Of a stretch of DNA of 64,000 nt, positions 8,731 to 18,043 are shown piece by piece. Position 1 is the stretch's first letter, and every line of letters begins with the position of its first letter. Below the pieces are notes generated by a model that did no database searches, was not told the DNA's origin, and saw only the letters and a program-made list of their open reading frames with translations. The position numbers were made by a program, and so were the translations under genes. This DNA is from a virus (lineage: Duplodnaviria > Caudoviricetes), in the IMG/VR virus record IMGVR_UViG_3300013121_000013, positions 1 to 64,000 of that record; one strand, given 5' to 3'.

Positions 8731-8911
8731 TTTGTCTTTTCTCCATCTATGTCGGAAATATATACGTGGATTATATTTAAGTATATACGCTGCCAGTTGT
8801 TTACGTAAATAGATATGCTAAATTTTCGACAAAAACACGTTATAATATAGTGCAAAAGCTCATAAGTATGAGAGTTGCCGTTTTTATATCTATTTAAAAT
8901 TGATTTTTCAC

Positions 8912-8940
8912 TTGAATTGTTTAAGTTACTTATGTAACAT
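8912..8940 (+). promoter_or_regulatory. Sigma70-like promoter for the tRNA/Y-RNA operon
   Basis: TTGAAT-17 bp-TAACAT, 10 nt upstream of the first RNA element. Confidence 0.55.
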
Positions 8941-8949
8941 CTTTGAATC

Positions 8950-9018
8950 ATAACTGACTGCAGCATTGGACTACATCACTTGTAAGGCGAATGTCTAATG
9001 CGAACCCTTGTCAGTTAT
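8950..9018 (+). ncRNA. Y-RNA-like element Y1 (minimal)
   Basis: ATAACTGAC/GTCAGTTAT outer stem, GCATTGGAC/GTCTAATGC inner stem, TACATC. Confidence 0.75.
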
Positions 9019-9023
9019 AATGT

Positions 9024-9147
9024 GTGAGGGTAGCTCAATGGGCAGAGCACAAAGAGTTCTCTCTGGATAATTTTCGTTGATGTCGTCAACTGCCATCTTG
9101 AGTACATCATAATCTTTAGGTTGTAGGTTCGAATCCTACCCCTCACA
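9024..9147 (+). ncRNA. tRNA(CAU)-like RNA with a circularly permuted Y module inserted in the anticodon loop
   Basis: GTGAGGG/CCCTCAC acceptor stem, normal D and T arms; insert TTTTCGTTGA-TGTCG-TCAACTGC...GAGTACATC. Confidence 0.75.
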
Positions 9148-9152
9148 CTTTT

Positions 9153-9226
9153 TGCAGAGTGGACTGGAGAGGCGCCAGCGCGGCTTCATACGCCGTACGA
9201 CACGGGTTCGATTCCCGTCTCTGCGA
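9153..9226 (+). tRNA. tRNA-Met(CAU)
   Basis: Cloverleaf; GCGGC-TTCATAC-GCCGT anticodon arm; weak 1:72 pair; no encoded CCA. Confidence 0.8.
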
Positions 9227-9227
9227 C

Positions 9228-9376
9228 TTACCAACTGTTTGATAAGAGTACATCAATTTGAATGGTTCGATTCCATTTTCCCCCTATATCTACTATCGGG
9301 GGAAAAGCCACAAGGCGTGGCACTTACCCTTCTGGGGTAAGAATTTATGGATCTCTTGTCTACTCTTCGTTGGTAA
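9228..9376 (+). ncRNA. Y-RNA-like element Y2, YrlA-type with a permuted tRNA cloverleaf
   Basis: TTACCAAC/GTTGGTAA and GATAAGAG/CTCTTGTC stems; T arm, loop-closed acceptor stem, D arm, anticodon-like arm. Confidence 0.8.
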
Positions 9377-9379
9377 CAT

Positions 9380-9436
9380 GGTAGCTCTCTTAGATTTAAA
9401 TAATCTAAGGAGATGACTTTCGAAGGTCAAGCTACC
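9380..9436 (+). ncRNA. Small three-way-junction RNA
   Basis: GGTAGCT/AGCTACC stem closing two hairpins. Confidence 0.5.
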
Positions 9437-9440
9437 CCTT

Positions 9441-9576
9441 CCTGACTGCTAGAATGGAGTACATCCCTTCGGAGGACGAAGAATCGGTGCAAATCCGATC
9501 CCTGCAACTTCAAAATTTATTGCAGGGTAGTGTAATAGATAGCACGCGAAAAATCTCTATTCATCCCCTTGTCAGG
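9441..9576 (+). ncRNA. Y-RNA-like element Y3, YrlA-type with a permuted tRNA(UCG)
   Basis: CCTGAC/GTCAGG and GAATGGAG/CTCTATTC stems; anticodon loop CTTCGGA, T arm, CCCTGCA/TGCAGGG acceptor, D arm. Confidence 0.8.
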
Positions 9577-9582
9577 TTAATT

Positions 9583-9655
9583 GGGCAGTTAGTTCAGCGG
9601 CAAGAGCGCCTCGTTTACACCGAGGATGTCACAGGTTCGAGTCCTGTACTGCCCA
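9583..9655 (+). tRNA. tRNA-Val(UAC)
   Basis: Canonical cloverleaf; CCTCG-TTTACAC-CGAGG. Confidence 0.95.
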
Positions 9656-9657
9656 CT

Positions 9658-9781
9658 TCCGACTGCTGTTTTTAGTACATCGTTCTGCCAGGTGTGGTAA
9701 CTAGCCCACTCCAAGCGACGCCAGCAATGGTGATGGCCCTTAAAGTCGTGTAACTAAGTCTAAAAACAAATCTTTGTCGGA
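9658..9781 (+). ncRNA. Y-RNA-like element Y4 with a ~78 nt non-tRNA insert
   Basis: TCCGAC/GTCGGA and TGTTTTTAG/CTAAAAACA stems, TACATC. Confidence 0.75.
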
Positions 9782-9793
9782 CGTGCGTATTTT

Positions 9794-9877
9794 CGGGGTG
9801 TAGACCGTAACTTGGTAGCGGGCCTGCTTTGGGAGCAGGTGGTATATCCCCTGTAGGTTCAAATCCTATCACCCCGA
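9794..9877 (+). tRNA. tRNA-Pro(UGG) with enlarged variable region
   Basis: CGGGGTG/CACCCCG acceptor; CCTGC-TTTGGGA-GCAGG. Confidence 0.9.
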
Positions 9878-9881
9878 CTTC

Positions 9882-9980
9882 GACAAATAGGCGAGAGTGT
9901 GGCTCGGAGCAGTAATGCGACGGGTGGCTGGGTTTGTAGCATCATAGTGCAATCTCCACAGTATGCACCGTCTGTTTGTC
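9882..9980 (+). ncRNA. Unassigned structured RNA
   Basis: 12-bp closing stem GACAAATAGGCG/CGTCTGTTTGTC with G-U pairs; internal TGTGG/CCACA. Confidence 0.55.
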
Positions 9981-9987
9981 TTATTAT

Positions 9988-10060
9988 GGGACCGTAGCTC
10001 AATGGTCAGAGCAAGGAACTCATAATTCCCAGGTTGTAGGTTCGAATCCTACCGGTCCCA
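9988..10060 (+). tRNA. tRNA-Ile2 or Met (CAU)
   Basis: GGGACCG/CGGTCCC acceptor; CTCATAA loop; Ile2-like body. Confidence 0.9.
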
Positions 10061-10086
10061 CTGTAGGATAACTAACCTATATTTTT

Positions 10087-10173
10087 GGAAGGGCAAGCCA
10101 ATTGGCGGTGGCCGCGCTCTTGAAAAGCGTTAGGGGTTAACGACCCGTGTGGGTTCGACTCCCACCTCTTCCG
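10087..10173 (+). tRNA. tRNA-Ser(UGA)
   Basis: GGAAGGG/CTCTTCC acceptor, CTTGAAA loop, long variable arm, G discriminator. Confidence 0.95.
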
Positions 10174-10180
10174 CTAAACT

Positions 10181-10249
10181 TGGGCTGGGGCAGGGATCTA
10201 GAAATAGAGCTGCTTGCCATTATCATAGGGCTCGTAACCCACCAGTCCG
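10181..10249 (+). ncRNA. Reduced tRNA-like RNA
   Basis: GGGCTGG/CCAGTCC stem, one long arm, T-loop-like GGG-CTCGTAA-CCC. Confidence 0.4.
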
Positions 10250-10252
10250 CTT

Positions 10253-10322
10253 TGCTAACTGTTGGTCCGGATTACATCAATCATTTTTAACCGTTGACAT
10301 CCGGATCGTCACCTCGTTAGCA
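10253..10322 (+). ncRNA. Y-RNA-like element Y5 (minimal)
   Basis: TGCTAAC/GTTAGCA and GGTCCGGAT/ATCCGGATC stems, TACATC. Confidence 0.75.
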
Positions 10323-10333
10323 TAATATTCTTA

Positions 10334-10432
10334 TCGGCGGTGCCTGGAAGGCTTCCTTGTAGAAATCTGCGAATAGTCAGCTGTGCTAGTCTGATTAGAG
10401 GTAAACAGGTTCGATTCCTGTTACATGTCCGA
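10334..10432 (+). ncRNA. Atypical tRNA-like RNA (canonical T arm, aberrant body)
   Basis: AACAGG-TTCGATT-CCTGTT plus three small hairpins; poor acceptor stem. Confidence 0.45.
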
Positions 10433-10434
10433 AT

Positions 10435-10507
10435 GCCGTTCTGGTGTAGCCGGTCTGCACGCCTGCCTGAAGAGCAGGAGGTTCTGGTTCGAACCCAGAG
10501 GACGGTA
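10435..10507 (+). tRNA. tRNA-Phe(GAA)
   Basis: GCCGTTC/GGACGGT acceptor; CCTGC-CTGAAGA-GCAGG. Confidence 0.9.
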
Positions 10508-10890
10508 CTTGTCCACCGGCAGTCCGAAGACTGCTGAGGCCGCCATGTGGGGGTCAGGTAGGGCAGCCATAGAATGTAGGTCCCCTAGCAGGGAGGATGT
10601 CATGAAATCGATGTTTAGCTTTATTATAGCCACGGGTGCGTGTGGCACCCTTTAATAATACCTCAGCTTTTGTGCTTGGCGGCACGAGGATGACTGAGGG
10701 TAGATTTAAATTTGTTAAGTAAGCTTCGTACTTGTCAGAACATTCAGATTCAGTGAGAATACCAATGTAAGATGTAAGATAAGTTTTAGAATTTTAGAAC
10801 CAGGAGATTAGGAGTTGAGCTCCCTAATGTAGCGCCTGGGCAGTGCGCTCAAGTCCGACTGCTTTCTAGTCGGATCTTACTTTTATATAC

Positions 10891-10963
10891 GGGTCTGTGG
10901 CGTAATTGGGAACGCGCTGGATTTGCACTCCGGAGTTGAGGGTTCGATTCCCTCCAGTATCCA
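10891..10963 (+). tRNA. tRNA-Ala(UGC) with a 1-nt acceptor bulge
   Basis: CTGGA-TTTGCAC-TCCGG; G3:U70 is kept if one T of CAGTATCC is bulged. Confidence 0.8.
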
Positions 10964-10967
10964 TTAA

Positions 10968-11027
10968 GCCGACTATCGAACGGTTTACACCATAATGCCA
11001 AAATAAACTGTTCAAATCTTCGTCGGC
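10968..11027 (+). ncRNA. Y-RNA-like element Y6 (minimal)
   Basis: GCCGAC/GTCGGC and GAACGGTTTA/TAAACTGTTC stems, TACACC. Confidence 0.75.
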
Positions 11028-11038
11028 CTAAATCATTT

Positions 11039-11300
11039 TTCAACTGCGGTCAGCGGAGTACACCTGAAAATAGAATTGTTCGGGAGTAGCTTCCCATAAA
11101 GAGCGCTAGCACGTAGGAATGCTCTTTATAAGCAGGCGATCCCTCGTAGCAGCCGGAGGTTAAACGGCGCAAGTAGGAGTTACTTTGAAACCCCCCTGGT
11201 AAAGCTTGGGTTAAATGTGATGCTCGTGGCGACGAGCCTAAACTATAATAAGTGTGGGTGTTCCACGCTTGTTACGCCTCTCCGGACCATTTTCGTTGAA
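11039..11300 (+). ncRNA. Y-RNA-like element Y7 with a ~210 nt structured insert
   Basis: TTCAAC/GTTGAA and GGTC(AG)CGGAG/CTCCGGACC stems, TACACC. Confidence 0.75.
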
Positions 11301-11314
11301 TCTATATTGGTCTA

Positions 11315-11484
11315 GATCGACTGCGGCAGACGGCATTCATCATGCCTAGCTGTTTAAGGAAGGTAATAGGAGAAAGTTCGCGGCCTCCTGGGCACGTCCT
11401 TTAGCCAAAAGAAATCCGCGCATGCCGATAGCCTCTCGGCTGTATGAGGCACCTTAACCCTTGCTGCTGCAACTTTCGTCGATC
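11315..11484 (+). ncRNA. Y-RNA-like element Y8 with a ~120 nt pseudoknotted insert
   Basis: GATCGAC/GTCGATC and GCAG(A)CGGCA/TGCTGCTGC stems, TTCATC. Confidence 0.7.
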
Positions 11485-11487
11485 AAC

Positions 11488-11531
11488 GGAGCCCTGAGGA
11501 TTGTCCTCAGGGCTCCTTGTTTCTTTTTTTT
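11488..11531 (+). terminator. Intrinsic terminator closing the ncRNA operon
   Basis: Perfect 13-bp stem GGAGCCCTGAGGA/TCCTCAGGGCTCC plus a T-rich tract. Confidence 0.85.
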
Positions 11532-11555
11532 CGTTTCTTAATAGGAGAAACTGCA

Positions 11556-13181
11556 ATGTCGAATCCTGATCTCTTTAGCAGCAAATCAGCCACTTCTTCT
11601 TTCGGGCTGAAACATCCTAAGACTGATACTGTGAATAACGCTGGAGGCGTTGCTTATAAATTTACACCGATGCATGCCCTTGCTCAGATGGTTGCGACCG
11701 GAGTGTTTCGTAACACGTATTACACTTCTGGTGCAGAGCAATTGAAGGCATTCATGGAAATTACCGAAGATAAGAAAAGTATCAGTGATGAAAGGCTGGC
11801 TAAGTTAGCGATCTGGGGGCGGCACAACGCTTATATGAAGGACACCCCTGCAGCTTGCGTTATGCGTCTGTTGTCTAGAAACAACATGGACTTGTTCCAT
11901 AAGGTTTTCGATAAAGTAATCGACAACGGTCGAATGCTCCGTAATGCATTTCAGATGTTGAGGTCTGGTGTATTTGGTAGGCGTAGCATGGGATATTCGG
12001 TTCAACGTGCTTTTCAGCGCTGGTTCAATGAGAAGCCAGTACACGTTCTTGTTGCTGGAAGCGTAGGCAACAATCCTAGCCTTAAGGACGTTCTACGTGC
12101 AGCAAGGCCGACTCCTAAAGATCAAGAGAGAGACGCTCTCTTCGGATGGCTTGCTGGCAAGGCCACTGACGCACAGGCACAGAACTTCCCACAAATGTTG
12201 AAAGATATTTTGGAGTTCAGAGCAAACAAAGAACCTAGTGCTCAAATTGAGGTTCTTAACAGGATGGGCGGGTTGCGTTGGGAAATGCTATCTGACGCGA
12301 TTGCTGGTCCAGAGGTGTGGAAGGTAATTATCGGGCATATGGGCCATCAAGCACTTCGTATGAATCTCAATACCCTCGATCGGCATGATGTATTTAAGTC
12401 CAAAGAGACAGTTAATTATGTAGCCAGCAGGCTGTCTGATGTTGAAGAAATCAAGAAGGCAAGGCAGTGGCCTATTCAGTACTTCAGCGCATATATGAAT
12501 GCCGATAATGTCCCTCATAAGATTCGTGAAGCTCTGTGTTCGGCTGCCGAAGTAGCTTGTGGTAATATTCCAGAGCTAGATGGCCCTCTAGTAATTGGCG
12601 TGGATACTTCTGGTTCTATGGGTTCTCCCATTACAGGCGTCCATGCTAAAGGAGGCGCATCGTCCAAAGTGACTTGTAGAGATGCCGCAGCCCTGTTTGC
12701 TGCGGCCCTGATTCGAAAGAATCCGGACTCTCTAGTTGTTCCTTTTGACGATAGGATTCACAAGATCAAGATCGATCCTGGAGATACTATTCTTAGTATT
12801 AGCAAATCCTTGTCTAGACTTGGAGGTGGCGGCACTTGCTGTCATCTACCGCTGCAGCATGCAAATAGTCTTAACAGGCCGTTTGCTGGTTGCGTCATGA
12901 TTTCTGACAATGAAAGCTGGATCGGCACTGGTCGATACGGGTCAACAGGCGTCATGTCGGAGTGGAATATCTTTGTTGATAGGCAGAAAAAGCTTGGTGT
13001 ATATCCAGCGCCAAAGCTTCTAAATATTGACATCGCTCCATATGCATCAACTCAGGCTGTTGATAGGGTTGATATCTTGAATGTTGGAGGATTTTCTGAC
13101 TCTGTCTTTAGCGTTATTTCTGGATGGATGTTCAATAAAGCTGGAACGTTTGTCGATCAGATCGAAGCTGTCCAGCTCTAA
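11556..13181 (+). CDS. rsr: Ro60/Rsr TROVE-domain RNA-binding protein with C-terminal vWA domain
   Basis: N-terminal NNAGGVAY, ALRMNLNTL, MIDAS DTSGSM, GGGT, SDNESW, VGGFSDSVF; AGGAG RBS supports ATG 11556. Confidence 0.92.
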   Translation: MSNPDLFSSKSATSSFGLKHPKTDTVNNAGGVAYKFTPMHALAQMVATGVFRNTYYTSGAEQLKAFMEITEDKKSISDERLAKLAIWGRHNAYMKDTPAACVMRLLSRNNMDLFHKVFDKVIDNGRMLRNAFQMLRSGVFGRRSMGYSVQRAFQRWFNEKPVHVLVAGSVGNNPSLKDVLRAARPTPKDQERDALFGWLAGKATDAQAQNFPQMLKDILEFRANKEPSAQIEVLNRMGGLRWEMLSDAIAGPEVWKVIIGHMGHQALRMNLNTLDRHDVFKSKETVNYVASRLSDVEEIKKARQWPIQYFSAYMNADNVPHKIREALCSAAEVACGNIPELDGPLVIGVDTSGSMGSPITGVHAKGGASSKVTCRDAAALFAAALIRKNPDSLVVPFDDRIHKIKIDPGDTILSISKSLSRLGGGGTCCHLPLQHANSLNRPFAGCVMISDNESWIGTGRYGSTGVMSEWNIFVDRQKKLGVYPAPKLLNIDIAPYASTQAVDRVDILNVGGFSDSVFSVISGWMFNKAGTFVDQIEAVQL

Positions 13182-13296: not shown

Positions 13297-14691
13297 ATGT
13301 CGCTAGAGGTAAAATACATGCAGCAAGTAATAGATAAGTTAATTGCTGGTCTATATCTTATAAAAAGAGGAGCTTCTCCAGAGCTATCATATGATATGCA
13401 TGGAGAGCTTTATTTAAGTAAGTCTGGATGGATTCTATTATCAGTTCCTAACTCTCTTGTTAGAGGATCATTTGATGCTCTTGGAGTTGTCGGAGCTGAA
13501 TTACCTCCAGGTCCTGATGGAAAGCTAAATGCGCATATTTCTGTTATTAGGCCAGAAGAACTTGAGCAGATAGGCGGCGCTGATAAAGTAACAGAAAGAG
13601 GAAAACAGTTTAAGTATAGGATTAAAAGCTTAAAAACTGTAGTTCCATCTAGTTGGCCTGAGATATCTAAAGTCTGGATGTTAGAAGTTCAATCGCCAGA
13701 ATTAGAAAATTTAAGAAAAAGTTATGGACTTTCAGCCAGGCCAAAAGATAACAAATACGAATTTCATATCACCATAGCGGTCAGAAGAAAACACGTCTTA
13801 AAAGAAAATGAAATAGTAAAAAAGAGTGGAGTAATAAAAGTGGCAAACTCAGATAACGCACCTTATAGGGAGCGCGCCGAGGTATTTGCTATTTCTCCTT
13901 CTAATAAAGTATTCGGAGCAATATGGGATAACGATAAGACATTTGCAATTCCTGGTGGAGGAATAGACCCAGGAGAAGATATTACAGAAGGGGCGCTTAG
14001 AGAGTTTAACGAAGAAACTGGATTAAAGATAAGAAATCCAAGATTAGCGCCTGATATAGAGCCAGTCGTGAATCTATGGCCTGAAGAATATAGGAAATCG
14101 GCACCTGAGGATAGAAAGCATTTTCTAGGCAGTAGAACACATTATGTCTTAGCTGATATCGACGATAACTTACTTGTAGATCCTTCTACCGACTACTGGG
14201 GTGCCAAAGACAAGCGCTATTACGATCTTGAAGAGGCTTTAAAGATTCATACTGGATCAGAAATTCCTCCAATGTCTAAACCTCATTGGGAGGTAAGAAA
14301 AAGAATTTTGGAAAATCTGCTTAAAGGCGTACAAAGTAAAAAAGCTGATAATACAACAGATGATGAAGTCTATAGAAATTCTCTTGAGGAGGCAGTAGAA
14401 CATGAATTAGAACACACAGATGACGAAGATATAGCAGAAGAAATAGCTAAAGACCATCTTAAAGAAGATCCAGAATATTATACAAATTTAGATAAGATGC
14501 ATGAATACGTTAATAATCTGGACGATGATTCTGAAGATGCTTTAAAAGACTCTATTGTCATAAAGCAGACAACTATGATTATTTCTTCAAAGAAAGGTAT
14601 TAAGCCTCCTAAAGAATTGGAAAAGATTTTCTCTAAGTCAGCGCCAGGGATACCAGAAGAGCTAGAAGAGTTATTTAACAGAGGTAGATAA
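13297..14691 (+). CDS. 2H-phosphoesterase + Nudix hydrolase + DUF5661-like fusion protein
   Basis: HISV and HITI 2H motifs; Nudix box GGGIDPGEDITEGALREFNEETG; ELEHTDD...IAKDHLKEDPEYY. Confidence 0.8.
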   Translation: MSLEVKYMQQVIDKLIAGLYLIKRGASPELSYDMHGELYLSKSGWILLSVPNSLVRGSFDALGVVGAELPPGPDGKLNAHISVIRPEELEQIGGADKVTERGKQFKYRIKSLKTVVPSSWPEISKVWMLEVQSPELENLRKSYGLSARPKDNKYEFHITIAVRRKHVLKENEIVKKSGVIKVANSDNAPYRERAEVFAISPSNKVFGAIWDNDKTFAIPGGGIDPGEDITEGALREFNEETGLKIRNPRLAPDIEPVVNLWPEEYRKSAPEDRKHFLGSRTHYVLADIDDNLLVDPSTDYWGAKDKRYYDLEEALKIHTGSEIPPMSKPHWEVRKRILENLLKGVQSKKADNTTDDEVYRNSLEEAVEHELEHTDDEDIAEEIAKDHLKEDPEYYTNLDKMHEYVNNLDDDSEDALKDSIVIKQTTMIISSKKGIKPPKELEKIFSKSAPGIPEELEELFNRGR

Positions 14692-16201: not shown

Positions 16202-18043
16202 ATGCAAAGTTTTAAACAGTACTGCTATATGCTTGGAAAATCGGCTGCTTGGTCGTTTAACTCTAAAGGTTGTGTAGGAAAGATTAAGCAAGCTGCTCAA
16301 CTTTATCGTGGTTTGAAGACTGACTATGTAGAACCAAACATTGATAATAAGCGGTATAATGAATTGATTACCAGCGCACTAGATGGCGGTTTATCTAGAA
16401 AAGCACAACACGAATTGCAAATGCTTGGGCGCAGACGCGAACAATTTTACACTGACCAAGAGAATGAGGCGCGACAATATGCTGGTCCTGGCGGTACTTT
16501 GGTGAAATTAAATCTTCCTGATGCTGGCCTATCTGAGTTTAGGTGGACATACAACAATCTCGGTAGGCCAAATCAGTTTTTAACTGGTGCAATAGACTCA
16601 GCGCGATTACAGCGGTTGTTGCAGCGTAGACGATGGTTGCAAAGCATTGAAAAGATAATAATACAACATAACGAGAAACAAGCTGCTAAAGGTATACCAG
16701 ATAGAAAAGATTACGGAGATTTATCAAATATTAATATTGGTCAATTAGTTGATTGGATAGTTCAAAAACACGACGCAGAGAGAGCGGGAACTCATTATGA
16801 CGTTCGGTTTGGAACTCCAGAATCTGGATTGTACTCATGGGCAGCTAGAAAAGGCTTACCTAAACCTGGAGAGAAAAACTTAGCCGTTCAACAACCTCTT
16901 CACTCTTATGATTATAAAGATTTTGAAGGCCGAATTGAGGAAGGCTACGGCAAAGGAAACGTCAAGAAGCAAGATTCAGGAGAGATTCTATTAACTGATG
17001 TTTCTCCTAATAAGATTAATTTTACTACCGGTTCTAAGAGATTCCCAGAGAGATTCTCTTTAGTAAGAACAGGCAAAGGTAAGAACTGGCTTTTATTAAA
17101 CACAACACCAACAAAATCAGTAGGTGTAGATAAGGTACATTATAAGGTAGTAGACGCTGATAAAGTTCAGCCTTTGATAGACGATCTATCAAAAGGCTCG
17201 TCTGTTCAGGCTAAGATAGATGGAGCCTCTTCTTTAATTAATCTAGTTAAAGATAAAGTTGAGCTTCTTTCATATAGACAAAACAAAGCTACTGGATATC
17301 CAATCTTTCATACTGAAAGGGCTTTTGGTGGAATACCCAAAGGAGTTCCTAAAGATTTAAATGACACTACCTTGAGAGGAGAGCTTTATGGATTAAAGAA
17401 TAATAAAGTCATTCCTCCAAGCGAGTTAGGTGGGCTCCTTAACTCTGGAGTAGCTAAAAGCTTAAAAGATCAGAAAGATCGAGGCATACAACTTAGAAAT
17501 ATGGTGTATGATATAGCTAAGTATAAAGGAAAAGAAATAGATGTAAATAAAATACCATACGAGCAACGAATGAAATATATAAAAGAAATACTTGATAAGA
17601 TTCCGCACGGAGATAGATTTGAAGTTGCCCAGGAAGCTAAGACTCCAGACGAAGCAAGATCTTTACTAGATAGCATTAGATCCGGGCAGCACCCTCAAAC
17701 TTCTGAAGGAATAGTTATTCATCCTCCTACTGGAAATCCTATTAAGTCTAAGCTCCTTGAAGAACAGGATGTTCATATAAGAGAATTCTTCCCAGGAAAA
17801 GGAAGGTTGCTAGATAAGGGTGTAGGTGGGTTTAAATATAGCTTAACTCCTACAGGGCCTATATTAGGAGAAGTAGGGACCGGGCTGACAGATGATATGC
17901 GAAGTCAGATGCATCAGGACCAAGGGTCTTTTATAGGCCGCCGAGCCAGGGTCAGATCACAAGGAGCGCTGCCTAGCGGTGCATTAAGGGCGCCGGCTTT
18001 AATATCTTTACATGAAGATTATCCTCTTATGCAAGGACAATAA
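16202..18043 (+). CDS. ATP-dependent DNA ligase fused to a LigD-type 3'-phosphoesterase domain
   Basis: VQKHDA..HYDVRF..SWAARKG..H..DY.DFEG.I..GYGKG (PE domain); KIDG, GELY, YDI, EGIV, VGTGL (ligase/OB fold). Confidence 0.88.
   Translation: MQSFKQYCYMLGKSAAWSFNSKGCVGKIKQAAQLYRGLKTDYVEPNIDNKRYNELITSALDGGLSRKAQHELQMLGRRREQFYTDQENEARQYAGPGGTLVKLNLPDAGLSEFRWTYNNLGRPNQFLTGAIDSARLQRLLQRRRWLQSIEKIIIQHNEKQAAKGIPDRKDYGDLSNINIGQLVDWIVQKHDAERAGTHYDVRFGTPESGLYSWAARKGLPKPGEKNLAVQQPLHSYDYKDFEGRIEEGYGKGNVKKQDSGEILLTDVSPNKINFTTGSKRFPERFSLVRTGKGKNWLLLNTTPTKSVGVDKVHYKVVDADKVQPLIDDLSKGSSVQAKIDGASSLINLVKDKVELLSYRQNKATGYPIFHTERAFGGIPKGVPKDLNDTTLRGELYGLKNNKVIPPSELGGLLNSGVAKSLKDQKDRGIQLRNMVYDIAKYKGKEIDVNKIPYEQRMKYIKEILDKIPHGDRFEVAQEAKTPDEARSLLDSIRSGQHPQTSEGIVIHPPTGNPIKSKLLEEQDVHIREFFPGKGRLLDKGVGGFKYSLTPTGPILGEVGTGLTDDMRSQMHQDQGSFIGRRARVRSQGALPSGALRAPALISLHEDYPLMQGQ
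17174..17192. promoter_or_regulatory. Palindromic motif copy 2 (TTGATAGA-CGA-TCTATCAA), intragenic
   Basis: Same 8-bp arms as the other copies, 3-nt spacer. Confidence 0.45.

What the first reader, a model, noticed from the sequence alone, without database searches (positions are those of the whole stretch)
9441..9576. Y3 is a permuted tRNA(UCG) with an intact anticodon loop, possibly processed to a two-piece RNA
Seen order: TCC-CTTCGGA-GGACG (anticodon loop, UCG), AAGA, T arm ATCGG-TGCAAAT-CCGAT, 3' acceptor CCCTGCA-A, linker starting CTT, 5' acceptor TGCAGGG, D arm, G-CG. Rejoining CG and TCC gives a perfect CGTCC/GGACG anticodon stem, so the Ro module interrupts the stem between positions 28 and 29. 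The linker begins with the same A-CTT trailer found after four true tRNAs in this cluster. Known: typical YrlA has T, acceptor and D arms but no anticodon loop; permuted tmRNA genes are matured by cutting out the acceptor linker. Inference: RNase P/Z could open the loop, giving a chargeable Ro-tethered tRNA-Arg mimic or a decoy for anticodon nucleases.
Basis: partly seen in the sequence, partly recalled or inferred. Interest (0 to 1): 0.82.

Follow-up and report, generated by a model that had tools for sequence, protein, structure and literature searches.

The report
Phage Y RNA holding a rearranged tRNA
This phage RNA is a Ro60-binding Y RNA (YrlA type) whose body is a complete but circularly rearranged tRNA, anticodon arm included, and about a hundred related Y RNAs show the same arm, which the literature says is absent or calls a "variable" stem-loop.

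Summary
Window 9441-9576 (+) is a YrlA-type Y RNA, 1.9 kb upstream of a phage Ro60 gene on the same strand.

- **What is there:** a two-part Ro-scaffold stem encloses a circularly permuted cloverleaf: T arm, 7-bp acceptor closed by a 14-nt linker, D arm. UCC/GGA plus C27-G28:C42-G43 forms a perfect 5-bp anticodon stem with the loop CUUCGGA.
- **Not chance and not unique:** in 38 of 43 comparable modules from other Ro60 loci, the two bases after the D arm pair with 42-43. The permutation null is 11.9 ± 2.6.
- **Independent model:** a covariance model built without this window hits Y3 at 57 bits (E 5e-16).
- **Loop signature:** homologs keep a 7-nt loop with U33 and R37, while the triplet varies.
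- **Already in a described group:** mycobacteriophage Catera, from the phage group where YrlA RNAs were described, has the same arm.
- **Known by precedent:** cutting into two pieces was shown for M. smegmatis YrlA, but it is untested here.
- **Speculative:** charging with arginine or a decoy role.
- **Caveat:** energy folding prefers a Y3-specific hairpin, CUUCG/CGAAG.

The parts
9441..9446 (+). Y scaffold, outer stem 5' strand (CCUGAC); pairs with 9571-9576
   Evidence: MFE fold. The paralogous modules in the window change both strands together, for example AACUGAC/GUCAGUU and ACCAAC/GUUGGU.
9452..9459 (+). Y scaffold, inner stem 5' strand (GAAUGGAG); pairs with 9555-9562
   Evidence: The GGAG/CUCU core is shared with Planctomycete YrlA.
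9460..9465 (+). Conserved junction motif UACAUC. It corresponds to the YUAY 'kink' motif of YrlA. Its last two bases, U9464 and C9465, are positions 29-30 of the anticodon stem.
   Evidence: The motif recurs six times in 8950-10280 and is enriched upstream of Ro60 in Planctomycete loci. Literature.
9464..9478 (+). Distal anticodon arm: U29 C30 C31, loop C32 U33 U34 C35 G36 G37 A38 (9467-9473), then G39 G40 A41 C42 G43
   Evidence: Sequence. Family covariation. Covariance-model alignment without mismatched pairs.
9479..9482 (+). 4-nt variable loop AAGA
   Evidence: A genuine phage tRNA-Arg(UCG), L167, has AAGU at this place.
9483..9499 (+). T arm AUCGG / UGCAAAU / CCGAU, with G at position 55
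   Evidence: G55 co-occurs with A18 in the D loop.
9500..9507 (+). Acceptor 3' strand CCCUGCA (9500-9506) plus discriminator A (9507)
   Evidence: 7-bp stem with 9521-9527.
9508..9520 (+). Linker closing the acceptor stem. It starts with the trailer-like CUU and ends with the leader-like AAUUUAU, with U at -1. Predicted RNase P site is 9520/9521; predicted 3' trimming is after 9507.
   Evidence: Sequence. The cleavage sites are inferred from M. smegmatis YrlA and were not tested.
9521..9527 (+). Acceptor 5' strand UGCAGGG
9528..9545 (+). U8 A9 and the D arm GUGU / AAUAGAUA / GCAC, with A18 G19 in place of G18 G19
   Evidence: Identical D arm in genuine phage tRNA-Arg and tRNA-Gly genes.
9546..9548 (+). 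G26, then C27 G28, which pair with G43 C42 (9478, 9477) and close the split anticodon stem
   Evidence: 38 of 43 homologs pair here against a permutation mean of 11.9. 100% of cells paired, with GC/CG/AU types.
9555..9562 (+). Y scaffold, inner stem 3' strand (CUCUAUUC)
9563..9576 (+). Pyrimidine-rich bulge (AUCCCCUU) and outer stem 3' strand GUCAGG. The conserved 3' motif is CUUGUCAGG.
   Evidence: The same YUYGUYRG strand occurs in Planctomycete YrlA.
11517..13181 (+). Ro60 gene (TROVE plus vWA domains), the presumed protein partner. The likely true start is near 11556, because the database protein has 541 aa.
   Evidence: Pfam PF05731 and PF25045. 52-56% identity to Planctomycete Ro60.

Best explanation
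Y3 is a YrlA-class Y RNA of a large phage whose Ro60 is of the Planctomycete type.

**Architecture**
- The two-part stem (9441-9459 with 9555-9576) is the scaffold shared by all Y modules of this cluster and by Planctomycete YrlA. By analogy it is the Ro60-binding site.
- The rest is a complete, circularly permuted tRNA: variable loop, T arm, acceptor stem closed by a spacer-like linker, D arm, and a full anticodon arm.
- The anticodon stem is split. Positions 27-28 come after the D arm and positions 29-31 come right after the scaffold's UACA motif. The Ro scaffold therefore branches off a three-way junction inside the anticodon stem instead of replacing the arm.

**How it most likely works**
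- Most likely it is a Ro60-tethered mimic of a whole tRNA that recruits or titrates tRNA-binding factor(s).
- Across the family selection keeps the shape of the anticodon loop (7 nt, U33, R37, A38) and not the triplet.
- Y3 itself looks recently derived from a phage tRNA-Arg(UCG)-type gene pair.
- Because it has a 7-bp acceptor, an A discriminator, a CUU trailer and U at -1, RNase P and 3' trimming plus CCA addition may open the linker, as in M. smegmatis YrlA.

**Shown:** the anatomy, the family-wide covariation and the Ro60 neighbourhood.
**Inferred:** Ro60 binding, the fold in the cell, processing and function.
For: **Ro60 context**
- A TROVE plus vWA Ro60 gene lies 1.9 kb downstream on the same strand.

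**Scaffold**
- The UACAUC motif is repeated in the cluster and is enriched upstream of Ro60 in Planctomycete loci. Planctomycete YrlA share the same 5' and 3' scaffold strands.

**Split anticodon stem**
- 43 unique permuted modules carry a local hairpin with a 7-nt loop. In 38 of them the two bases after position 26 pair with 43 and 42.
- The permutation null has mean 11.9, sd 2.6 and maximum 24 in 20,000 shuffles. Slid controls give 2-10.
- The count of structure pairs shows the local helix 96-98% paired and the long-range helix 100% paired. Every pair has changes on both sides, and 0 of 500 shuffles reach the observed values.

**Independent model**
- Model R2, built from 30 YrlA of other loci, hits 9456-9556 at 57.0 bits, E 5e-16, with no non-standard pair.

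**Loop signature**
- First set of 38 modules: Y32 31/38, U33 33/38, R37 36/38, A38 32/38, and 26 different triplets.
- Replicated in 22 viral rows outside the model's seed alignment (five of them also in the first set of 38): U33 22/22, R37 22/22.
- Replicated in 52 Planctomycete rows: U33 51/52, R37 51/52.

**Elbow**
- G55 in the T loop goes with A18 in the D loop in Y3 and in the three other true YrlA rows listed with G55; L004_5790, read by eye, fits as well. 92 of 106 modules with U55 have GG.

**Ancestry**
- Genuine phage tRNA-Arg genes (UCG, UCU, ACG) carry the same D arm and the UGCAAAU T loop.

**Processing precedent**
- M. smegmatis YrlA, with a 7-bp acceptor, is cut by RNase P and receives CCA.
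Against: - Nearest-neighbour folding gives the split arm essentially zero probability in Y3. It prefers the local hairpin CUUCG/CGAAG: -42.3 kcal/mol, against -35.1 for the split arm and -36.5 for a long-range UUCG:CGAA stem.
- The distal helix is only 3 bp and the proximal one only 2 bp, so the arm depends on coaxial stacking.
- Y3 has A15/A48 rather than a standard Levitt pair (read).
- Rfam's YrlA model does not match Y3 even at E 10, and the GNCGAAN0-1G motif is not literally present.
- The comparison rows for searches were picked for having the hairpin. The unbiased figure is 38 of 43.
- There are no RNA data: expression, ends and Ro60 binding are all inferred.
Confidence: 0.7

Rival explanations
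1. Conventional YrlA reading. The stem-loop upstream of the T arm is a variable-arm hairpin, which in Y3 would be CUUCG-GAGGA-CGAAG. No anticodon loop forms, and the Ro scaffold simply takes the place of the anticodon arm.
For: - The MFE and centroid fold use this hairpin with pair probability about 0.99.
- Chen et al. 2014 label a stem-loop at this position 'V'.
- True variable-arm hairpins exist in tRNA-Leu-like YrlA such as L097, L136 and L086, where a full long-range anticodon stem forms (read by eye from the sequences).
Against: - The 5/5 pairing of 32-36 with 42-46 occurs only in Y3 among 38 homologs.
- Three of its five pairs are inherited, because the variable loop AAG opposite C32-U34 is also present in the genuine tRNA-Arg(UCG) L167. 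The other two follow automatically from CG at 35-36 and CG at 42-43.
- The thermodynamic model also misses the covariation-supported split arm in 37 of 38 homologs.
- A variable arm would lie 3' of positions 42-43, whereas this hairpin lies 5' of the bases that covary with 27-28.
Confidence: 0.2
2. Y3 is a working permuted tRNA-Arg gene. RNase P and 3' processing open the linker, giving a two-piece tRNA-Arg(UCG), or a religated one once the scaffold is removed. This tRNA is charged and used in translation, or serves as a spare copy.
For: - All cloverleaf parts are intact. ARAGORN calls the un-permuted sequence tRNA-Arg(tcg).
- The 155-kb record has 24 tRNA genes and none for Arg.
- The D arm and T loop equal those of genuine phage tRNA-Arg genes.
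- The trailer and leader resemble those of the neighbouring tRNAs.
Against: - Orthologous YrlA do not conserve the triplet: 23 kinds in 52 rows.
- With the loop masked, the bodies rarely match the isotype of their triplet (8 of 38). Y3's best body match is a tRNA-Gly.
- The ARAGORN test is lenient, since controls with shifted or swapped junctions are also called tRNA.
- A roughly 45-nt scaffold plus Ro60 on the anticodon stem is hard to reconcile with decoding.
- No RtcB and no CCA-adding enzyme were found in the record, and the record is only about 76% complete.
Confidence: 0.06
3. A young evolutionary by-product. A tRNA-Arg gene pair was recently captured in a Y scaffold, and the anticodon arm is still intact only because too little time has passed. 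It has no selected role.
For: - Close likeness to genuine phage tRNA-Arg in D arm, T loop and variable loop.
- A dimeric-tRNA origin has been proposed for YrlA.
- The three tRNA-bearing modules of the window join the scaffold at three different points.
Against: - In older, diverged orthologs the triplet has drifted while loop length, U33, R37, A38 and the stem pairs are kept through compensatory changes.
- This points to selection on the arm in the family.
Confidence: 0.1

Closest known systems
YrlA (Y RNA-like A) of Salmonella Typhimurium; Rfam RF02553; crystal structure 6CU1
   Same: - A Ro60-associated non-coding RNA encoded next to the Ro60 gene on the same strand.
- The order is permuted: T arm, closed acceptor-like stem, then D arm.
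- A UA 'kink' motif sits at the junction.
- It has a tRNA-like elbow.
   Different: - The Salmonella RNA has a 6-bp acceptor and no anticodon loop, and the stem continues straight into the Ro site.
- The Rfam consensus has no hairpin.
- Y3 has a 7-bp acceptor and a full split anticodon arm.
- Its scaffold sequence is different (ACUGC...UACAUC / CUUGUCAGG).
- It does not match RF02553.
M. smegmatis YrlA and mycobacteriophage YrlA (ET08 in the paper; Catera examined here)
   Same: - M. smegmatis YrlA has a 7-bp acceptor, is cut by RNase P and receives CCA, which gives a two-piece RNA bound to Ro60.
- Catera carries the same split arm: CUC / AUUGCAA / GAGAG, with C27 U28 after the D arm.
   Different: - In the literature the stem-loop upstream of the T arm is called 'V', not an anticodon arm.
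- Catera's acceptor has 6 bp.
- The Ro60 proteins are only about 23% identical to the one here.
Planctomycete YrlA-like RNAs upstream of Ro60 (not annotated; found here)
   Same: - The same scaffold motifs.
- The same junction at 28|29 or 29|30.
- The same 7-nt loop.
- They sit inside tRNA arrays.
   Different: - They are cellular, not phage-borne.
- The variable loop is mostly 5 nt (AGGUU).
- The T loop is the standard UUCGA.
- The triplets are biased to CAU and CAG.
Phage tRNA-Arg(UCG/UCU/ACG) genes with the D arm GUGUARUAGAUAGCAC and the T loop UGCAAAU
   Same: - Identical D arm and T loop, including the A18/G55 pair.
- A 4-nt variable loop starting with AAG.
- The loop CUUCGAA against Y3's CUUCGGA.
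   Different: - These are ordinary, collinear tRNA genes without a Ro scaffold.
Circularly permuted tRNA genes (Cyanidioschyzon merolae) and two-piece/permuted tmRNA
   Same: - The 3' half is encoded before the 5' half.
- The acceptor is joined by a linker that processing enzymes can remove. This rests on established knowledge.
   Different: - Those genes mature through circular intermediates or yield a working tRNA or tmRNA.
- Here no splicing motif, no tag reading frame and no evidence of maturation was found. ARAGORN with tmRNA search found no tmRNA.

Membership tests
YrlA-type bacterial/phage Y RNA (Chen et al. 2014) | Encoded within about 4 kb of a Ro60 (TROVE) gene, on the same strand | tested here: met
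   Y3 ends at 9576. The Ro60 ORF is 11517-13181 (+), with PF05731 and PF25045. The criterion is quoted.
YrlA-type bacterial/phage Y RNA (Chen et al. 2014) | T-arm-like and D-arm-like stem-loops separated by a closed acceptor-like stem, all inside a long terminal stem | tested here: met
   Fold, parser, and a full-length match to the covariance model of 30 other YrlA at 57 bits.
YrlA-type bacterial/phage Y RNA (Chen et al. 2014) | GNCGAAN0-1G motif near the 5' end (the putative Ro60 contact) | tested here: not met
   The 5' strand reads CCUGACUGCUAGAAUGGAG and has no literal match. Planctomycete relatives read UGCCGAUUGGAG, which is closer.
YrlA-type bacterial/phage Y RNA (Chen et al. 2014) | Conserved YUAY just before the region upstream of the T arm | tested here: inconclusive
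   Y3 has G-UAC-A (UACAUC). UAC is conserved in all modules, but the first base is G, not a pyrimidine.
YrlA-type bacterial/phage Y RNA (Chen et al. 2014) | Bound by Ro60 in the cell | not testable with these tools
   No RNA or protein data.
Rfam RF02553 (YrlA) | Score at or above the gathering threshold of 69 bits | tested here: not met
   No match at E up to 10 in 2.4 kb or in 166 nt. Mycobacteriophage Catera, used as a positive control, gives only a partial 36.1-bit match.
Canonical tRNA | Collinear cloverleaf recognised by tRNA finders | tested here: not met
   ARAGORN and Rfam tRNA do not call 9441-9576. There is only a 12-bit local match.
Canonical tRNA | All four arms, a 7-nt anticodon loop with U33 and R37, and D-loop/T-loop elbow contacts | tested here: met
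   After un-permutation ARAGORN calls tRNA-Arg(tcg), although that test is lenient. Loop C32 U33 ... G37 A38. A18/G55 covariation. Exception: 15:48 is A:A.
Circularly permuted tRNA gene that yields a mature tRNA | 3' half upstream of the 5' half, with halves that rejoin without gap or overlap | tested here: met
   CG (9547-9548) plus UCC (9464-9466) complement GGACG exactly.
Circularly permuted tRNA gene that yields a mature tRNA | Processing to a mature, chargeable tRNA | not testable with these tools
   No RNA data. No RtcB or CCA-adding enzyme in the record.

The most novel reading that the evidence does not exclude
The stem-loop of YrlA RNAs that the literature calls 'V' is a real anticodon arm displayed on Ro60, and its fast-changing triplet is functional. 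Y3 (UCG) and Y2 (UCU) would then act as Ro60-tethered tRNA-Arg stand-ins. After RNase P/CCA opening they could be chargeable two-piece tRNAs, or decoys or sensors for anticodon-loop nucleases, in a phage record that has 24 tRNA genes but none for arginine.
Probability: 0.1. Interest if true: 0.9.

Novelty: new variant of a known kind. Interest (0 to 1): 0.62.

Why it matters
YrlA RNAs are described as tRNA mimics that lack an anticodon loop, and the effector they recruit to Ro60 is still unknown.

- **A complete mimic:** here, and in about a hundred relatives, the mimic is a whole tRNA. The anticodon arm is kept by compensatory changes and the loop keeps the U33/R37 signature, while the Ro60 scaffold hangs off the anticodon stem.
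- **Effector search:** this changes which effectors are plausible. Factors that read the anticodon loop, such as modification enzymes, repair ligases and anticodon nucleases, join the elbow binders.
- **Origin:** it gives concrete support to the idea that YrlA arose from dimeric tRNAs.
- **Annotation:** such RNAs can be found with a simple structural model where Rfam fails.
- **Phage biology:** it links Ro60/Y RNA modules to the contest over tRNAs between phage and host.

Tried and rejected
- **Close relatives of the phage:** a single-protein locus search found none. DNA similarity to known phages found only tRNA genes.
- **ARAGORN on un-permuted constructs:** it of 38 as tRNA with the expected triplet. 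Controls with 1-3 extra bases or swapped 27-28 are also called, so this says nothing about the junction.
- **BLAST of loop-masked bodies against 757 genuine tRNAs:** same isotype in only 8 of 38, and Y3's best hit is a tRNA-Gly. I therefore do not claim that the body is specifically tRNA-Arg.
- **First covariance model R1:** I mistyped its structure by one column. It was replaced by R2.
- **A long-range UUCG:CGAA stem (model C):** considered, then rejected as not conserved and not favoured.
- **Y RNAs on the minus strand:** considered, then rejected because the T loops and tRNAs read on the plus strand.

Full report
**Context**

The window is the first 64 kb of a 155,646-bp IMG/VR virus record, estimated about 76% complete. 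Positions 8731-11516 contain no long ORF. On the + strand they hold eight tRNA genes, interleaved with modules that share one scaffold. The scaffold's 5' strand is ...ACUGY-N(8-10)-UACAUC and its 3' strand is ...CUCU-...-CUUYGUYRG.

Directly downstream lies a Ro60 gene, 11517-13181, with TROVE and Ro60-vWA domains. Its best relatives, at 52-56% identity, are Planctomycete Ro60 proteins. Next come a 2H-phosphoesterase/Nudix protein and a LigD-phosphoesterase/ATP-ligase protein. A strong terminator-like hairpin at 11488-11516 separates the RNA cluster from Ro60.

**The observation**

C27-G28 (9547-9548) and U29-C31 (9464-9466) together complement G39-G43 (9474-9478) perfectly, around the loop CUUCGGA. 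The module folds better than shuffles (z = -3.5).

It forms a local hairpin CUUCG/GAGGA/CGAAG next to the T arm, at -42.3 kcal/mol. The split arm costs -35.1 and a long-range UUCG:CGAA stem -36.5. Sequence and energy alone therefore leave three readings open.

**Comparative test**

I collected 80 viral and 80 Planctomycete loci that encode Ro60 relatives. I scanned them for permuted cloverleaves: a T arm, a 7-nt acceptor 3' strand, a linker, a complementary 5' strand and a D arm. After removing T arms that belong to ordinary tRNAs, 115 unique modules remained.

- 43 of these have a 2-4 bp hairpin with a 7-nt loop ending exactly 5 + (4 or 5) nt before the T arm.
- In 38 of the 43, the two bases that follow position 26 after the D arm pair with positions 43 and 42.
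- Permuting those dinucleotides among modules gives a mean of 11.9 (sd 2.6, maximum 24 in 20,000). Sliding the partner gives 2-10.
- The five exceptions are two tRNA-Leu-like modules with true variable arms, one choice of register, and two false positives.

On MAFFT alignments, the count of structure pairs shows the local helix 96-98% paired and the long-range 2-bp helix 100% paired. Every pair has changes on both sides, and no shuffle or slid control comes near. Those rows were chosen for having the hairpin, so 38 of 43 is the unbiased figure.

A covariance model built from 30 such RNAs, none from this window, finds 9456-9556 as the best hit in the window. It scores 57.0 bits at E 5e-16, full length, and all 20 modelled pairs are standard.

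**The loop**

- In the 38 modules, position 32 is a pyrimidine in 31, 33 is U in 33, 37 is a purine in 36 and 38 is A in 32. Positions 34-36 are nearly uniform, with 26 different triplets.
- The pattern repeats in 22 viral matches outside the model's seed alignment, five of which were already in the first set of 38 (U33 22/22, R37 22/22).
- It repeats again in Planctomycete loci. Of 82 distinct matches, 65 have a 7-nt loop and 52 have the loop plus all four modelled pairs. In those 52, U33 is 51/52 and R37 is 51/52, and there are 23 triplets with CAU the commonest.
- Column entropy is 0.14 bit at position 33 and 1.4-1.8 bit at 34-36, which is as variable as the acceptor linker.

Y3's loop (C32 U33 UCG G37 A38) fits this consensus. 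The family therefore conserves the length and shape of an anticodon loop but not the triplet.

**Why the energy model is not decisive**

- The same thermodynamic model predicts the covariation-supported long-range pairs in only 1 of 38 homologs.
- The competing pairing of 32-36 with 42-46 reaches 5 of 5 only in Y3.
- Three of those five pairs, the variable loop AAG opposite C32 U33 U34, are also present in a genuine collinear phage tRNA-Arg(UCG). The other two follow automatically from CG at 35-36 and CG at 42-43.

I therefore regard the hairpin as a Y3-specific competitor. It may or may not matter in the cell, and only probing can settle this.

**Relation to tRNAs**

- Y3's T loop has G55 and its D loop has A18 G19. 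Among true YrlA modules, G55 always goes with A18, whereas 92 of 106 modules with U55 have GG. This is a covariation at the tRNA elbow.
- A search for Y3's D arm in viral contigs found it in ordinary phage tRNA genes. These are Arg-UCG (loop CUUCGAA, variable loop AAGU, T loop UGCAAAU), Arg-UCU, Arg-ACG, Gly-UCC (T loop UGCAACU) and one Gln-UUG with a different T loop.
- Y3 thus looks like a permuted copy of a phage tRNA-Arg(UCG)-type gene.
- With the loop masked, however, its best BLAST match is a tRNA-Gly of the same class. Over all modules the triplet matches the isotype of the body in only 8 of 38. I do not claim a specific arginine identity.
- The record has 24 tRNA genes and none for Arg, but it is incomplete.

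**Relation to the literature**

- Chen et al. 2014 defined YrlA by T, D and acceptor-like stems next to Ro60. [quoted passage not shown]
- Wang et al. 2018 state that YrlA lacks the anticodon loop and has a UA kink in the anticodon-like stem. They cite the idea of a dimeric-tRNA origin.
- Rfam's YrlA consensus pairs four bases just before the variable loop with four bases just after the D arm and has no hairpin. It does not match Y3.
- Mycobacteriophage Catera, from the phage group in which YrlA was described, shows CUC / AUUGCAA / GAGAG with C27 U28 after the D arm.
- The hairpin lies 5' of the bases that pair with 27-28, so topologically it is the distal anticodon arm and not a variable arm.
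- Among the eight papers in the library that contain both 'YrlA' and 'anticodon', I found none that describes this.
- Two-piece processing is known: M. smegmatis YrlA has a 7-bp acceptor, is cut by RNase P and receives CCA.

**Mechanism**

The best-supported reading, at about 0.7, has three parts. Y3 is a Ro60-bound Y RNA. Its effector module mimics a whole tRNA. The Ro scaffold branches from the anticodon stem at 28|29.

Opening of the linker by RNase P and 3' trimming plus CCA addition is plausible, at roughly 0.4-0.5. The grounds are the 7-bp acceptor, A73, the CUU trailer shared with five neighbouring tRNAs, and U at -1. None of this was tested.

Charging by ArgRS, or a decoy role against anticodon nucleases, remains speculative. 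The lack of triplet conservation in orthologs argues against a triplet-specific role for the family. The neighbourhood of end-healing and sealing enzymes fits a role in tRNA damage or repair.

**Verdict**

The claimed contrast with 'typical YrlA' and the novelty of processing are overstated. The functional ideas are open.

The object is a YrlA-class Y RNA of a variant architecture, with a complete split anticodon arm. Current models and annotations do not capture that architecture.

Noticed in passing
window 9024-9147: A tRNA(CAU)-like gene (Rfam tRNA, 50.3 bits) with a 57-nt insert in the anticodon loop. The insert is the Y scaffold in reversed strand order, closed by a loop. This is the circular permutation of a YrlA. 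A similar 147-nt tRNA hit lies just upstream of Ro60 in a Planctomycete locus (L086 2533-2679).
   Followed up: partly
window 9229-9377: Y2 is a permuted cloverleaf with T arm AAUGG/UUCGAUU/CCAUU and acceptor UUCCCCC/GGGGGAA. Its anticodon-like hairpin after the D arm is unsplit and can be read as the loop CUUCUGG (UCU). The scaffold joins at the variable-loop side. MFE z = -5.6.
   Followed up: partly
window 9380-9436: A compact three-helix element between Y2 and Y3. A 7-bp closing stem GGUAGCU/AGCUACC encloses two hairpins, one with a UUCGAA-like loop. MFE z = -3.4. It may be a tRNA-like processing signal that sets the 5' end of Y3.
   Followed up: partly
whole record (G000), tRNA genes at 9153-10962, 121154-122372 and 142835-148739: ARAGORN finds 24 tRNA genes and none for Arg, Asp, Trp or Tyr. 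Two Y modules (Y2, Y3) carry Arg-type loops (UCU, UCG). The record is estimated at only 76% complete.
   Followed up: partly
L167 2321-2394, L174 618-692, L205 638-712, L182 3606-3677 and others: A class of genuine phage tRNAs (Arg-UCG, Arg-UCU, Arg-ACG, Gly-UCC) has the D arm GUGUARUAGAUAGCAC and the T loop UGCAA(A/C)U. A18/G55 replaces G18/psi55, an apparent covariation at the tRNA elbow. A Gln-UUG tRNA (L192) shares the D arm but has a different T loop.
   Followed up: partly
L082-L161 (Planctomycete Ro60 loci), upstream 3 kb: Ro60 genes of Planctomycetes are preceded on the same strand by tRNA arrays and by one to several YrlA-like RNAs. None reaches an Rfam threshold. Their anticodon-like triplets are biased to CAU, CAG and CAC.
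   Followed up: partly
L123 about 2604-2710 and L091 about 1339-1443: Two YrlA whose anticodon-like loops have 8 and 9 nt instead of 7.
   Followed up: no
window 13297-14691 and 16202-18043: The first is a fusion of 2H-phosphoesterase (2H-SAK), Nudix and DUF5661. The second combines a LigD 3'-phosphoesterase with an ATP-dependent ligase. Together they form an end-healing and sealing set next to Ro60.
   Followed up: partly
window 11488-11516: A 13-bp GC-rich hairpin followed by a U-rich tail lies immediately before the Ro60 ORF. The called TTG start at 11517 is probably too early, because the database protein has 541 aa rather than 554.
   Followed up: no
window 10087-10174: Rfam calls this RNA tRNA-Sec (49.8 bits against a threshold of 47), while ARAGORN calls it tRNA-Ser(UGA). 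It is most likely an ordinary class II tRNA-Ser.
   Followed up: no
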